Shown here in pieces: positions 47,501 to 60,000 of a stretch of 64,000 bases of DNA (its first letter is position 1; each line of letters begins with the position of its first letter). The position numbers are program-made. Origin of the DNA: Carcharhinus longimanus. Taxonomy: Eukaryota. The DNA is taken from the NCBI GenBank assembly GCA_030264375.1, contig JASCQW010000146.1:26798570-26862569 (forward strand), in the 5' to 3' direction.

Positions 47501-50500
47501 GTTATGGGGATAGGTAAGATGCTCTGTCACAGAGTCAGTGCAGACACGATGGGCTGAATGACCTCCTGCTGCACTGTATGGTTTCATATTCATAGAATCC
47601 CAAGTTGATTAATGGAGACACCCAGTAACTAATTAACTGGCAGAACAGGCTTGAGGGGCTGAATGGTCCACTTCAGTTTCTATTGATGTTAAACTGAATT
47701 TTAAAAATCAAGTCTACATATTCTGATACAATTCCATAAACAAAATGATTGAATCAGAGGCAGAGTGGTGGCACAATGATTAACACTACTGCCTCACAGC
47801 ACCAGGTCCTGGATTTGAATCCCAGCTTGGGTCACTGTGTGGAGTCTGCATGTCCTCCCCACATCTGCCTGGGTTACCTCCAGGTGCTCCGGTTTCCACT
47901 CAGTCCGAAAGACATGCTGTTAGGTGCATTGGCTATGCTAAAGTCTCTCTCGGTGTACCTGAAAAGGCACCAGAGTGTGGCCACTGGGGGATTTCCAAAG
48001 CAACTTCATTGCAGTGTTAACTTAAGTCTGCTTGTGACACTAATAAATTAACTTTAAACACCTGCACTATATCCATACAACTTTAAAGATTTATTTTGAA
48101 CAATTTAAAGATATTTAAAATATCTTAATAGAAGTTTTGACACAAGGCTTGACTACAAACAAGCCATAACTAATGCCACACAATAACGACGTGAAATGCA
48201 CTCTCGTCGGCAATCTCGTCTTAGTACCATCGCTATTTAAAACTCAAATTCTAAGCTATAAATCACAAACTGCTCATCACCGCTTAAAATCATGCGTCCT
48301 GCTTTTCGCAAGATTCAATTCGTTGACGTTACTATTTGAAGCAACTTCTGCTTATTCCTTAAAGCAATCCCAGGCCTCCTTGTCAATGCGCATGTACTGG
48401 TTGAGTGGCTCAGTCCCAGCAGCTCACGTTAAACTGTACTCAAGGCTCCTAGTCAGAGCTCTGGGAGGGAGGAAGGCACAGGAATACTGCATTGGTGTAA
48501 CGGGTTCAATTTGACCTTTAAAACACATTTCAGCAGATACGAGTCTATTACGATAGGTAACGTGCAATTGGGTCTCTCTTCAGGAACGTTTGTTAAATTC
48601 TGAATGCTGTGAAGTACTCACCGCTGCAGGTATAGTGACTTCAAATCCAACTATACGCTTAAATTACATTATAAAAAAATCAGGAACAACCTCAACGTGC
48701 TTTAAATGCAGTAGGAAGTTAGCGTGCAGAAAGGGCATAAACACATATTTATCTGCGGTTTCTGGCATTCTTAAGAAATCTCAACTGGAATAAAACTAAT
48801 CGAGTTTCGTTCTGGAAATAGTGTGGTAGTGTGCACTGATTTAGCCCACAGATTTATTACATCACCAGAGCAAGAAAATTCTAAGCAATCTCACTTTGCC
48901 CTCAAACATCCTCTTCCTTTTGTTCAGCAAAAGTCTGAACTTGTAATGCAGCCGCCTCCCTAGGCGAGTCTGTCACACCTTGTTCGCCCAGCAGGATAAA
49001 ATAACAGGTTCCAGGTTTGTGGGGAGAAGATTAAAATTAAAATGTTACCTACAAATCTAACCGTTCACCTGGGTGAGCAATTTATCCATAAACGCGGTAC
49101 ATTTAAAACTAAATCAAAATGGTTATTTGCTGATAAAGACAAAGAGAATAATCTACTTTCCAGACAAAAAAGGCATCGAGATTAGGCGATTAGTTAATAT
49201 CAGGGAGAAAAATAATGCATGAACATTTTTTAAAAATCCGACCAGGCACATCGAATACAACAAATAACAAAACCAGCTGAAACCTCCCCCCAGTAAAATT
49301 TATTTCGGAAATGAGCCCTAGCGTGAAAACAAAAACACTCGGAACTGTCACATGAATAAGAAAAAGGGCGTCATGAATTTAGGGAAGAATTATGCCCAAA
49401 CAAAACCGAGAATCAAAACCCTCCAGGACTTGACAGCATCTTTCTCTTTCTATTTTCAACTTGGAGGCATCTGAACAATTAATACTGGATTTGTGCCACT
49501 TACAACAACAAAAACAACCTTCTCAGCGATTAATTAACACCTCGGGAGTAGATGAAAAGGAACAAAAAAAGAGATTTAAAAAATGTACAGTTATGGCAGA
49601 TATATGCCAGTGCTGCTGCGAATGTGAACATGCAAAAAGGTGAATTTCCATTTCTGTGTCTGTGAGCGTCTTGAAGGGATGCCGTGTTGGGAGGTACGCC
49701 TCGAGGAAGCGGTTGTTCCAAGGGGAAAGCTGTTCATTACCTTTGTACCGCTCCAAGACGTCCTCATAGGCCTGAACATACTCCTTCTCCTCGGCGAAGG
49801 TGGTTGGTATCTGACCCGGCACATAGCCGGCCATGGTGGCAGCGTTCCGGCCGCAATCGTGGCCGCCTCCCCGGTACCAGAGATCGGCCGGCCGCTCTCT
49901 CTCTGTCTCTCCTCGCCCACACGGAGTTAACCGGAGTTTCCCGGGCTCACTCCAACCAGCCTTGCAGGATGTGAGTGGAGATTGCAGCGGACTCCCAAGT
50001 GAGCTTTTTCCCGGGGATGAGTCTCCGCCCCGCCGATTCCCAGCTTCTTTTTTTTCACATTTATTTTTGCTGATGAATGGTTTAGTCCCCCCCTCCCCCG
50101 CCGCCGGCGAATTGTTTGGCAGCGCCGCCCGGAGTCTGACTCACTCTCTCTCTGTGTCTGTCGCGCACAGGCCAACCACATTCCCTAGGAGCTGGGGAAT
50201 CAGAGCGCCGCCTCTGGCCTCGCGCCGGCCCAGCGGCTGCGCACAGCACCCTCCCCGCCCGCGCGAGCAACCGCCAACTGCCGGGGCTGGAGTGAAGGGG
50301 AGGCTGGGGGGAAGCAAGTTCGATAATGTCAGGTGAGATTATGGAAGGATCAACCGCCAAAGTGAGATTCTGCAGAGATCAACCAATTACATCACTGCCA
50401 AAGTGAGATTATCCCAAGATCAACCAATTACATCCCTGCCAAAGTGAGATTTCTGCAGAGATCAACCAGTTATATCATCATCAAAGTGAGATTCTGCGGA

Positions 50501-57037: not shown

Positions 57038-60000
57038 TATAAACATACAGCTGGGTGGCACAAGTGGTTAGCACTGCTCCCTCACAGCTCCAGGGACCTG
57101 GATTCGATTCCCGGCTCAGGTCCCTGTCTGTGTGGAGTTTGCACATTCTCCCCGTGCCTGTGTGAGTTTCCTCTGGATAGTCTGGTTTCCTCCCACAGTC
57201 CAAAGATTAGGGTTAGGTTGATTGGCCATGATAAAATTGCCCCTTAGTTTCCTGAGATGCCTAGGTTAGAGGGATTAGTGAATAAAATATGTAGGGATAT
57301 GGTGGTGGTAGTGCCTGAGTGGGATTGTGGTCGGTACTGACTTGATGGGTCAAATGGACTCTTTCTGCACTGCAGGGTTCTATGATTCTATGACTCTGAA
57401 TAATAGTCAGTACTGATTGACTGAACCCGTATCATATGTTTGAAATGGTGTTAACCTCTTTCAGTAGTTCAGTTGTAAAGAATCAAATCAATCTTTCTTT
57501 TGATGGTCATTTTATAGACTTAAAAATGTCTGAGAAACAGTTTGGCTTGGCAATGTTTATAATTGTAAATGGCTTTTTATGTAATAAACCTTATAGCTTT
57601 AATTATTTTCATTTTAATTGGCCATTTCAGCTAAAGTGTACCTTTATCTTGTACCTTCATATAGTTTCCTTTTTGTAAGTTTGCTGCTTTTCTCTTTAGG
57701 TTTAAACCTATGCAGAAGTTGGATGGTGTAGGAGACAATATGCCTGGAAATGGACAACACGCAGCTCCAACAACCCCGGAGCAATCTGTAGCTGCACAGA
57801 GCCAGCACCACCAGCAATTTCTTGGTCAGTCAATTAATCTTATACTGTTAGTTTCAGAGGGACCTAATCCTCTCCAGGTTATCAGGAACCTCATTTTAAC
57901 TGTGTCAGGTTTCCAACATCATAGAAACACTACAGAGTGCTCCACCATTATGCGGTTCTGCTTATCCTTGTCACTCCAGTTCTTTCCTCATGTAATTGGC
58001 TTTCACCAGCTGTTTTTCCAACTCTCTCTGGCTTACCTTTATTGCTTGACATGCATTAGCATTGGTTTAAATTTTTTGGATATAATCACAGATTCAAACC
58101 TAAACTGAAATGTGTCGAAAGGTTTGTGATATGCTCAAGGGTCAATGATACTTTGAGCTAAAATGCATCACGTAATGTTGTGTATCTTGTAGCAAACTTG
58201 ACACACTGCTGACCAGTCCGGCTGAGTATGGCACCTGCAGGGCCAGTGCAGATACCACTAGGATTGAAGTGATTGTGCATGTGTAAAACATACTTGTATG
58301 TCTCTAAACATTTTAAAATTATTGTTGTTCACAATAGATATGTCTCGTGCACTGCCAGAGTTTATTGATGCAGAGATTGGTAGCTGTCCTTTGCCAGAGG
58401 ATATCACACTGAATGAAGTGAAGACACTACAGACATTGTACAGAGAGCACTGTGAGGTGAGATGGACTGAGTGATGGGAGGTTGGGGTGAATGGTTCAGG
58501 AGAGGTGGCTGCTTCAAATCAAGCCCTACATCACCTTGCCTTTCTCGGATCCGTACTGTGCTTCTTATATTGTGTTCTTGTACTGTCTAATTCCCTGTCT
58601 TCTCAGGGATACTGGGTTCTGCTGAATCTTGTATTTATTTATGCCTTATCATGTGGAGAATCCTTTCCTTGGCACAGCTTAGTGAAAAAAATGTATCTCT
58701 CCATGTTGCTCAGCTTGAACAAACCCTGTAGTTTGAAGTTCATTACTGGTAGATCCCACTAATGAAGGGATATTTTTATTGTTTTGCAATCACAGGAAGA
58801 TCGAGCCTTTCTAATATCTCTAATATATCAATTTCTTGCATAAGAACATAAGAAGTAGGAGCAGGAGTAGGCCATCTAGCCCTTCGAGCCTNNNNNNNNN
58901 NNNNNNNNNNNNNNNNNNNNNNNNNNNNNNNNNNNNNNNNNNNNNNNNNNNNNNNNNNNNNNNNNNNNNNNNNNNNNNNNNNNNNNNNNNNTTTATTCAG
59001 CCTCTCCTCATAGCTCAACCCCCTCAACTCCGGTATCAGCCTAGTAAACCTCCTCTGCACACCCTCCAGGGCCAAAATATCCTTGCGTAAGTACGGCGAC
59101 CAAAACTGCACACAGTACTCCAGCTGCGGCCTTTACAGCACAGAAAGAGGCCCTTCGGCTCAGTGTGTCTGCACTAGCCACCAAGCACCTATCTATTATA
59201 ATCCCATTCTCCAGTTCTTAGTCCATAGCCTTCTATGCTGTGGTGCTCATCTAAATGCTCCTTAAATGTTGTGAGGGTTCTGATCTCTACAATCCTTTCA
59301 GGCAGCAAGTTTCAAACTTCCACCACTCTTTGGGTGAAAGAGATTTTACTCAAATTCCCTCTTAAATCGCCTGCCTCTTACCTTAAATCTATGCCTCCTG
59401 GTTATTGATCCCTCTGCTAAGGGGAAAAGTTTCTTTCAACCAGCCTAGCTATGTCCCTTCTAATTTTGTACCCTTCAATCTGGTGCTCCCTCAGCCTTCT
59501 CTGTTCTAAGGACAACAGACTAGCCAGCCTTTCTTCTTAGCTGAAATGCTCCAGCCCAAGGAATGGTGAGTCTCCTCTGCATCTTTCTAGTGCAATCACA
59601 TCTTTCCTATAGTGTGGTGACCAGAACTACATACAGTTCTCTGGCTGTGGCCAAACAAGGCTTTTATTTAGTTCCATCATAACCTTCCTGCTCTTCTATT
59701 CTATGTCTTGACTAATAAAGGCACATATATCATATGCTTTCTTAATCATCTTATCTACCTATCCTGCTGTCTTCAGGGATCTTTGGACATGCACCCTCTG
59801 GTCCTTCATACCTCCTAGTGCCCTACCATTCATTGTTTATGCCCTTGCAGATAATACTCCCAAAATGTGACACCTTAGATTTTGTGGTATTTCATAAGGT
59901 TACATCTCGGTTTGGCATTGAAGCTGTGATAATGGGCATGATGTGGACACAAATGAGCAATTTCAACTGCAGCCCTTAAAGGGTCAATTCAAAGATGAAA

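What the first reader, a model, noticed from the sequence alone, without database searches (positions are those of the whole stretch)
49741..58456. Headless RFX2 exons sit head-to-head ~6 kb from a spectraplakin internal promoter
Seen: four intact, phase-consistent RFX2-like exons begin at 55993 with an acceptor. I could not recognise any upstream RFX exon (N-terminal activation region, or the EMAIE..LLNSH exon) on the + strand anywhere in 1-55992, and that span is occupied by an opposite-strand gene. Known: RFX2 has about 200 aa of N-terminal exons. The QAYEDVLERYK exon of MACF1/DST normally has further isoform exons (GDTLPWNL type) upstream, and these genes are not neighbours in human. Inference: both genes seem to lack their 5' parts at this junction. 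Possible explanations are an inversion/translocation breakpoint, an antisense nested or interleaved arrangement, a truncated RFX (retaining the DBD but lacking the activation region) driven by the bidirectional CpG island, or a chimeric contig. There is no N-gap between 51264 and the RFX exons.
[Added by the scan's program, not by the reader: the finding's places include an assembly gap (unread letters, written N; its length is only estimated) at 51165 to 51264. Whether the letters on both sides are continuous or in frame is not known: test that first.]
Basis: partly seen in the sequence, partly recalled or inferred. Interest (0 to 1): 0.75.

Follow-up and report, generated by a model that had tools for sequence, protein, structure and literature searches.

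The report
RFX exons facing a plakin promoter
Four intact exons of an RFX transcription-factor gene, starting at its DNA-binding domain, sit about 6 kb from and point away from a complete alternative first exon of a giant cytoskeletal-linker gene, and the front part of the RFX gene is nowhere in the 64 kb; this is an unresolved structural oddity of a draft assembly, not a new kind of system.

Summary
The sequence facts hold. Four AG/GT-bounded, phase-consistent RFX exons lie at 55993-58456 (+). The first two encode residues 2-75 of the crystallised RFX1 DNA-binding domain. A 31-codon first exon with its own ATG lies at 49834-49741 (-), inside the window's only CpG island.

The gap at 51165-51264 looks harmless. 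Its flanks share an exact 20-mer (1 of 10 gaps does), and one 40-bp minisatellite lies on both sides of it and nowhere else.

No RFX activation-domain exon, plakin CH-domain exon or other cellular domain turned up among 811 plus-strand and 594 minus-strand ORFs scanned against Pfam.

The plakin side is therefore not headless; only the RFX side is. My ranking:
- RFX part displaced by partial duplication or rearrangement: 0.35.
- Complete RFX gene with 5' exons more than 56 kb away, interleaved with the plakin gene: 0.30.
- Hidden assembly chimera: 0.20.

An in-frame first exon from the CpG island is possible, but candidates occur at chance frequency.

The parts
49741..49834 (-). Spectraplakin-type (DST/MACF1-like) alternative first coding exon: ATG at 49834-49832, 31 codons plus 1 nt (phase 1 end), donor AAG|GTAATG
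   Evidence: Translation. It is the first in-frame ATG of the open frame 49523-50140. Donor score 7.32. The family label rests on recall only: Pfam none, PDB 0 hits, Atlas no family, peptide in 0 papers.
49600..50399 (.). The only CpG island of the window, covering the plakin first exon and about 560 bp upstream of its ATG
   Evidence: GC 0.585 and CpG o/e 0.79 with 54 CpG, against o/e 0.22 for the rest of the window. All 7 of the 300-bp windows that pass GC>=0.5 and o/e>=0.6 lie in 49601-50500.
50327..50619 (+). Left part of a 40-41 bp minisatellite array
   Evidence: TRF period 41, 6.1 copies. 4 of the 13 core-motif hits lie here. Families D1 and D4.
50620..51665 (.). Block of dispersed-repeat (transposon-derived) sequence interrupting the minisatellite; it contains the assembly gap 51165-51264
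   Evidence: Self-blastn repeats at 50630-50750 and 50753-50859. Flank matches to other places in the window (coordinates only).
51145..51286 (.). Gap flanks: the last 20 nt before the gap (51145-51164) are identical to 51267-51286
   Evidence: Family D5. Only 1 of the window's 10 gaps has such an overlap; the others share 0-8 nt.
51666..52206 (+). Right part of the same minisatellite array
   Evidence: 9 of the 13 core-motif hits lie here, all on the + strand, none elsewhere in the 64 kb, 0.01 expected by chance. Families D1-D3. TRF period 40.
55993..56174 (+). RFX exon A: starts in phase 0 at LQWLLDNYE; encodes most of the winged-helix DNA-binding domain
   Evidence: Pfam RFX_DNA_binding E 1e-24, profile 5-64 of 79. 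1dp7_P residues 2-61, E 1.8e-33. Donor score 7.36.
56723..56842 (+). RFX exon B: end of the DNA-binding domain plus linker
   Evidence: Pfam profile 66-78 of 79, E 0.013. 1dp7_P residues 63-75.
57700..57824 (+). RFX exon C (linker region)
   Evidence: Open frame bounded by AG and GT, with phase continuing from exon B. No family hit.
58338..58456 (+). RFX exon D (ends ..YREHCE, phase 0)
   Evidence: Open frame bounded by AG and GT, donor score 9.84. No family hit.
49833..49970 (+). Hypothetical only: a 46-codon ATG-to-GTGAGT stretch in the CpG island whose phase fits the acceptor at 55993. A second candidate lies at 50326-50361.
   Evidence: These are 2 of 13 phase-0 candidates in 49500-55992, against 11 and 19 in the wrong phases, so this is no better than chance.

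Best explanation
Shown: the stretch from about 46.4 to 58.9 kb is one continuous piece of DNA.
- A complete, promoter-associated alternative first exon of a spectraplakin-type gene reads leftwards out of the only CpG island. Its next exon is more than 49.7 kb away.
- About 6.1 kb to the right, four intact exons of an RFX1-3-type (RFX2-like) gene read rightwards, beginning exactly at the DNA-binding-domain exon.
- The plakin gene is not truncated here. Only the RFX gene body is cut off from its 5' exons, which are absent from the whole 56 kb upstream on both strands.

Inferred: the RFX block has been displaced from its own 5' part, either by a partial duplication of an RFX2-type gene or by a rearrangement with one breakpoint in the intron before the DNA-binding-domain exon. 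It landed in the region upstream of the plakin promoter. On this reading it is a young promoter-less gene fragment. Less likely, it is transcribed from the shared CpG island through a new short first exon, giving an RFX protein with a DNA-binding domain but no activation domain.
For: Continuity across the gap:
- The flanks share an exact 20-nt overlap. Only 1 of the 10 gaps does.
- The minisatellite core has 13 hits: 4 to the left and 9 to the right of the gap, all on the + strand, none elsewhere, 0.01 expected by chance.

The plakin exon is complete:
- It uses the first in-frame ATG of its open frame, in a strong start context, ends at donor score 7.32, and lies in the only CpG island.
- Alternative promoters and variable N-termini are the rule for DST and MACF1 (PMC6975176 and PMC8012552, passages).

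The RFX exons are intact and of RFX1-3 type:
-. All 8 splice sites are AG/GT, and the 182 codons contain no stop.

The RFX 5' exons are missing:
- Among 714 of 714 plus-strand ORFs of at least 25 aa that start at or before 55992, the only RFX hit is the exon-A control.
- Among 594 of 594 minus-strand ORFs of at least 30 aa, there is no RFX hit.
- Recalled N-terminal motifs are absent in all six frames.

Geometry (inference):
- The plakin first exon lies between exon A and wherever the RFX 5' exons would be. A complete RFX gene would therefore have to be interlocked antisense with a giant, ancient gene, which needs a more complex history than one duplication or one breakpoint.
- RFX2 is reported to sit beside ACSBG2, RANBP3 and MLLT1 across vertebrates, not beside a plakin gene (10.1101/288530, section 3.2). 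No AMP-binding or other neighbour domain appears in the window.
Against: - A promoter-less fragment should decay, yet four exons and eight splice sites are intact. Exon A differs from human RFX1 at only 5 of 60 residues, by recall at sites where the paralogues themselves differ. That fits a functional gene at least as well.
- Fixed breaks in a conserved transcription-factor gene are rare.
- I could not look for a second RFX2 copy or for the RFX 5' exons elsewhere in the assembly.
- I had no positive control showing that the Pfam library would detect this species' activation-domain exons. That it holds such a model (RFX1_trans_act) is recalled; no call showed it.
- About 1.4 kb of N in six gaps upstream could hide exons, and 100-N gaps have unknown true length.
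- Long introns are reported for at least one shark (10.1101/443036, passages), so 5' exons beyond 56 kb are not absurd.
- The plakin identity of the minus-strand exon rests on recall only (all empty).
Confidence: 0.35

Rival explanations
1. Nothing is truncated. The RFX gene is complete, but the intron before its DNA-binding-domain exon is longer than 56 kb. The plakin alternative promoter and first exon lie inside that intron on the opposite strand, so the two genes are interleaved or nested antisense.
For: - The RFX exons are intact and highly conserved, as expected for a working gene.
- The plakin exon's own next exon is also more than 49.7 kb away, so very long introns occur at this locus.
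- Long, repeat-filled introns are reported for the whale shark (10.1101/443036, passages).
- The window is rich in reverse-transcriptase and endonuclease fragments.
Against: - It requires the 5' exons of RFX and the body of a giant, ancient gene to share the same territory on opposite strands. No single simple rearrangement produces this without breaking one gene (inference).
- No second CpG island that could serve as an RFX promoter exists in the 64 kb.
- The reported RFX2 neighbours are ACSBG2, RANBP3 and MLLT1 (10.1101/288530). I did not see the figure that shows which species were included.
Confidence: 0.3
2. Assembly artefact: plakin and RFX sequence from different loci were joined, either at the repeat that holds the gap or at a hidden join inside the repeat-rich, N-free stretch 52.2-55.9 kb.
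For: - This is a fragmented draft: 10 gaps in 64 kb, six of exactly 100 N.
- Both contig ends at the flagged gap lie in dispersed repeats.
- The junction is not expected from reported synteny.
- A flagged oddity in a draft assembly is a priori often technical (inference).
Against: - The flagged gap passes the continuity test. It has an exact 20-nt terminal overlap including a 10-G run, which is unique among the 10 gaps.
- The same minisatellite, in the same orientation, lies on both sides of the gap and nowhere else in the window.
- There are no Ns between 51265 and 58891.
- The window is too small to exclude the minisatellite-plus-repeat block being a dispersed composite element.
Confidence: 0.2
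3. The stray piece is the plakin-like exon, not the RFX block. A duplicated promoter and first exon of a spectraplakin gene sits inside an otherwise normal RFX intron and drives only a non-coding or abortive antisense transcript.
For: No second plakin exon is present in 49.7 kb downstream of it on either strand. Its family identity is supported by recall only.
Against: - The CpG island is strongly preserved (o/e 0.79 against 0.22), which by general knowledge suggests a promoter kept unmethylated in the germ line.
- The exon keeps its ATG, its open frame and a phase-1 donor.
- By recall, first introns of spectraplakin genes are tens of kb long in other vertebrates.
Confidence: 0.08

Closest known systems
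Human RFX1 DNA-binding domain (PDB 1dp7, chain P) and the RFX1-3 group of RFX factors
   Same: Exons A and B cover chain residues 2-75 of the 76-residue crystal construct. Exon A is 55 of 60 identical. Pfam RFX_DNA_binding at E 1e-24.
   Different: Group-1 RFX factors (RFX1-3) carry an activation domain before the DNA-binding domain, and B, C and dimerisation domains after it (PMC5838959, Fig. 1 legend). None of these was found in the window. Assignment to RFX2 rather than RFX1 or RFX3 rests on recalled diagnostic residues and is not tested.
RFX4/RFX6/RFX8 (group-2 RFX factors without an activation domain)
   Same: If the block were expressed from the CpG island, the product would be a DNA-binding RFX protein lacking the activation domain, which is the natural architecture of this group (PMC5838959).
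   Different: By recall, the DNA-binding domain and linker here are of the RFX1-3 type, not the RFX4/6/8 type. Expression is unproven.
Alternative N-terminal isoforms of the spectraplakins DST (dystonin a1/a2/a3) and MACF1
   Same: A short isoform-specific first coding exon with its own promoter. Several promoters or transcription start sites and variable N-termini are described for DST (PMC6975176) and MACF1 (PMC8012552).
   Different: No calponin-homology, plakin, spectrin or GAR exon is in the window, so the gene behind the exon is not seen. DST versus MACF1 versus plectin was not resolved.
Divergent (head-to-head) gene pairs at CpG-island promoters, and nested or antisense genes in long introns
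   Same: Two coding units on opposite strands diverge from one CpG island region.
   Different: The RFX unit begins with an internal exon 6.1 kb from the island, not with a first exon within about 1 kb. No plus-strand first exon is supported above chance.

Membership tests
RFX transcription factors | RFX-type winged-helix DNA-binding domain (Pfam PF02257) | tested here: met
   Exon A E 1e-24, profile 5-64 of 79; exon B profile 66-78 of 79. 1dp7_P E 1.8e-33 and residues 63-75.
RFX group 1 (RFX1-3) | Activation domain encoded upstream of the DNA-binding domain (PMC5838959) | tested here: inconclusive
   No RFX family other than the DBD among 714 plus-strand ORFs upstream or 594 minus-strand ORFs. 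The exons may lie outside the window or in gaps, and there was no positive control for sensitivity.
RFX group 1 (RFX1-3) | B, C and dimerisation domains downstream of the DNA-binding domain | tested here: inconclusive
   No further RFX hit among 97 plus-strand ORFs starting after 56181 or by recalled motifs. Only 5.5 kb, with three gaps, follows exon D.
RFX2 orthologue | Groups with RFX2 in a family tree | not testable with these tools
'RFX2-like' is recalled.
RFX2 orthologue | Conserved neighbours ACSBG2, RANBP3 and MLLT1 (10.1101/288530, section 3.2) | tested here: inconclusive
   No domain of such neighbours appears among the Pfam hits of either strand. 64 kb is too short to decide.
Spectraplakins (DST/MACF1) | Calponin-homology actin-binding domain, plakin domain, spectrin repeats (PMC8012552) | tested here: inconclusive
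   None in the window. Only the isoform-specific first exon is present, and it has no Pfam, PDB or Atlas match.
CpG island | Longer than 200 bp, GC of at least 0.5, CpG observed/expected of at least 0.6 | tested here: met
   49600-50399: 800 bp, GC 0.585, o/e 0.79.
Bidirectional promoter | Two transcription start sites on opposite strands less than about 1 kb apart | not testable with these tools
   No transcript data. In-phase plus-strand first-exon candidates occur at chance frequency.

The most novel reading that the evidence does not exclude
A rearrangement or partial duplication put the body of an RFX2-type gene under the control of the spectraplakin CpG island. A new short first exon on the plus strand (candidates 49833-49970 or 50326-50361) splices in frame to 55993. 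The product would be an RFX1-3-type protein with a full DNA-binding domain, and presumably the dimerisation domains, but no activation domain. It could act as a natural dominant-negative or repressive partner of RFX1-3, co-regulated with a cytoskeletal linker gene.
Probability: 0.08. Interest if true: 0.6.

Novelty: new member of a known kind. Interest (0 to 1): 0.3.

Why it matters
If the junction is real, it marks one of two things in this lineage: a structural change that split or partly copied a conserved ciliogenic transcription-factor gene, or an unusual antisense interlocking of two large genes. Either would affect how both genes should be annotated. Automatic pipelines could otherwise call a headless RFX2 or fuse models. 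The junction also offers a natural test of what an RFX1-3 protein does without its activation domain. If it is a hidden chimera, it flags a local error in the assembly. In either case the flagged N-gap is not the problem, and the plakin gene is not broken.

Tried and rejected
- Confirming the plakin exon by tools failed. Pfam gave no family. PDB gave 0 hits at E<=10. The ESM Atlas gave only unnamed short clusters at 0.90 with low recognition. The full-text search for the peptide found 0 papers.
- Exon D in the Atlas gave no usable hit.
- Rfam on the whole window at gathering thresholds gave 0 matches.
- I searched for a plus-strand first exon that could feed 55993. There were 13 in-phase ATG-to-GT candidates, against 11 and 19 in the wrong phases, so I rejected this as evidence.
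- I looked for a second CpG island that could be an RFX promoter. There is none.
- I compared the gap flanks with other repeat copies in the window, reporting coordinates only. Both flanks match dispersed repeats, and one other copy matches them in the same order and orientation. That copy is itself interrupted, so I gave this little weight.
- A literature search for RFX2 with MACF1, dystonin, shark and synteny found nothing on such a junction. A search for BEND6 with DST and 'bidirectional promoter' found 0 papers.
- I made no structure prediction, fold search or complex prediction. No claim here depends on one.
- Not scanned:
  - Plus-strand ORFs shorter than 25 aa.
  - One plus-strand ORF starting between 55993 and 56181 (98 against 97).
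  - The 192 minus-strand ORFs of 25-29 aa (786 against 594).

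
Full report
Scope and limits.
- I do not take this contig for human. By recall, the plakin exon and RFX exons C and D differ from the human proteins.
- I did not test the taxon.
Orthology (RFX2 versus RFX1 or RFX3; DST versus MACF1 or plectin) and copy number therefore stayed unchecked.
- Exons were searched one at a time. The joined spliced model was not built, searched or folded. Phase consistency was judged from exon lengths and split codons only.
- Supplements of papers were closed. Figure 2B and the supplements of 10.1101/288530 could bear on RFX2 synteny in cartilaginous fish, and I did not see them.

The gap, tested first.
- The window has 10 N-runs, six of them exactly 100 N.
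- At 51165-51264, the last 20 bases before the gap (51145-51164) are identical to 51267-51286 (family D5). This exact overlap includes a run of ten G.
- In the same test on all 10 gaps, the other nine share words of only 0-8 nt between their 60-nt flanks.
- Independently, a 40-41 bp minisatellite lies on both sides of the gap. The core GATCAACCAATNNCATCACTG, with up to 3 mismatches, has 13 hits. Four are at 50377-50563 and nine at 51684-52190. All are on the + strand, none lies elsewhere in the 64 kb, and 0.01 are expected by chance (arrays).
- Between the two array halves lies about 1 kb of dispersed-repeat sequence that contains the gap.
- The simplest reading is one array split by transposon insertion, with two contig ends that overlap at a hard-to-sequence G-run. 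The gap lies in non-coding repeat, so reading frame is not an issue. Continuity is supported.

The RFX side.
- Exons A to D lie at 55993-56174, 56723-56842, 57700-57824 and 58338-58456. Their lengths are 182, 120, 125 and 119 nt, a total of 546 nt or 182 codons.
- Each is preceded by AG and followed by GT. The split codons read AGG, AGG and GAT. Donor scores run from 3.0 to 9.8.
- Exon A is RFX_DNA_binding at E 1e-24, profile positions 5-64 of 79. Exon B supplies positions 66-78.
- Exon A aligns to residues 2-61 of the human RFX1 crystal construct with 55 of 60 identical, at E 1.8e-33. It aligns to RFX5 only at 1.5e-7. Exon B residues 1-13 align to residues 63-75. Exons A and B therefore encode the whole structurally defined winged helix.
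- Exons C and D have no family hit. I read them as RFX1-3 linker from frame continuity and recall.
- The frame upstream of 55993 has no ATG before a stop at 55930-55932, so A is an internal exon.

Search for the RFX 5' exons.
- RFX1-3 carry an activation domain before the DNA-binding domain, whereas RFX4, RFX6 and RFX8 lack it (PMC5838959, Fig. 1 legend).
- I scanned every N-free stop-to-stop ORF of at least 25 aa on the + strand that starts at or before 55992. There are 714, scanned one by one against Pfam at E<=1 in five batches.
- The only RFX hit is the control ORF that contains exon A (7.3e-26). Each batch listed fewer than 25 families, so none of the lists was cut short.
- I scanned all 594 minus-strand ORFs of at least 30 aa, in case pieces of the scaffold are flipped. 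There is no RFX hit.
- I scanned 97 plus-strand ORFs starting after 56181. The only hits are exon B again and LINE endonuclease domains.
- Recalled N-terminal and downstream RFX motifs are absent in all six frames, apart from exon D's own motif and one 10-aa chance ORF.
- Caveats:
  - I had no positive control for the activation-domain model. That Pfam holds one is recalled.
  - Short ORFs were skipped.
  - About 1.4 kb of N lies upstream.

The plakin side.
- 49834-49741 (-) reads MAGYVPGQIPTTFAEEKEYVQAYEDVLERYK plus one base.
- Its ATG is the first in-frame ATG of the open frame 49523-50140, in the context GCCACCATGG. The donor is AAG|GTAATG, score 7.32.
- It lies in the window's only CpG island: 49600-50399, GC 0.585, o/e 0.79, against 0.22 elsewhere.
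- By recall, this is the isoform-specific first coding exon type shared by dystonin and its relatives, spliced in phase 1 to the first calponin-homology exon. No tool confirmed this.
- The literature read here says only that DST and MACF1 use several promoters or start sites with variable N-termini (PMC6975176; PMC8012552).
- No calponin-homology, spectrin or plakin exon is present on either strand of the window. The next plakin exon is therefore more than 49.7 kb away.
- In form the exon is a self-sufficient first exon. On this evidence the plakin gene is not headless.

What it most likely is.
- Given the continuity, the plakin first exon lies between RFX exon A and any RFX 5' exons, whatever the order of the other scaffold pieces.
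- That leaves three readings:
  1. The RFX block is detached from its 5' part by partial duplication or rearrangement.
  2. The RFX gene is complete, with an intron longer than 56 kb that holds the plakin promoter, so the two genes interlock antisense.
  3. There is a hidden chimeric join in the repeat-rich, N-free stretch 52-56 kb.
- I rank reading 1 first at 0.35. One event explains it, and the reported RFX2 neighbourhood is ACSBG2, RANBP3, MLLT1 and ACER1, 'conserved in all species analysed' (10.1101/288530, section 3.2).
- Against reading 1, the exons are fully intact, which favours a working gene. That keeps reading 2 close at 0.30. Long repeat-filled introns are reported for the whale shark (10.1101/443036).
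- Reading 3 gets 0.20, because the one visible suspect, the gap, passed its test.
- A stray plakin exon copy gets 0.08.

A truncated RFX protein from the island.
- Phase-0 ATG-to-GT stretches exist at 49833-49970 (46 codons, donor GTGAGT) and at 50326-50361.
- Across 49500-55992 there are 13 such candidates in phase 0, against 11 and 19 in the wrong phases. This is no evidence either way.
- It remains the boldest reading not excluded, at about 0.08.

Verdict.
- The flagged gap is benign. The cause of the junction cannot be settled without reads, transcripts or other assemblies.
- Interest is modest.

Noticed in passing
window 49831-49836: The plakin start codon sits in a palindromic CCATGG, so an ATG is present on both strands at the same spot. 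The plus-strand ATG opens the 46-codon candidate 49833-49970.
   Followed up: partly
window 56871-57049 and 57054-57391: Inside the intron between RFX exons B and C there is a long interrupted (AC)n microsatellite. It is followed directly by a dispersed repeat that has up to 5 other matches in the window. Rfam called no tRNA-like or other RNA family there.
   Followed up: partly
window 25485-26550: A GC-rich stretch (0.52-0.59) with long open frames on both strands (up to 193 aa). It has no Pfam family and is CpG-poor (o/e 0.05-0.41), so it is not a CpG island. Its nature is unknown.
   Followed up: partly
window 56379-64000 (+), probably about 62.5-63.7 kb: LINE-type endonuclease domains (Exo_endo_phos in 2 ORFs, Exo_endo_phos_2 in 1) among the plus-strand ORFs downstream of the RFX exons. 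Reverse-transcriptase fragments occur elsewhere: 2 ORFs in 34.4-46.3 kb (+) and 1 in 15.6-32.3 kb (-). The exact ORFs were not pinned down.
   Followed up: no
window, all gaps (5771-6010, 17568-17667, 27783-28521, 34484-34583, 45032-45131, 46291-46390, 51165-51264, 58892-58991, 60298-60343, 60625-60634): There are ten N-runs in 64 kb, six of exactly 100 N. Order and orientation of the pieces outside 46391-58891 rest on scaffolding alone. Only the gap at 51165 has overlapping flanks.
   Followed up: yes
window 50327-50619 and 51666-52206: A locus-specific 40-41 bp minisatellite lies directly beside the CpG island. Each unit carries a donor-like AAAGTGAGA or CAGGTGAGA string.
   Followed up: partly
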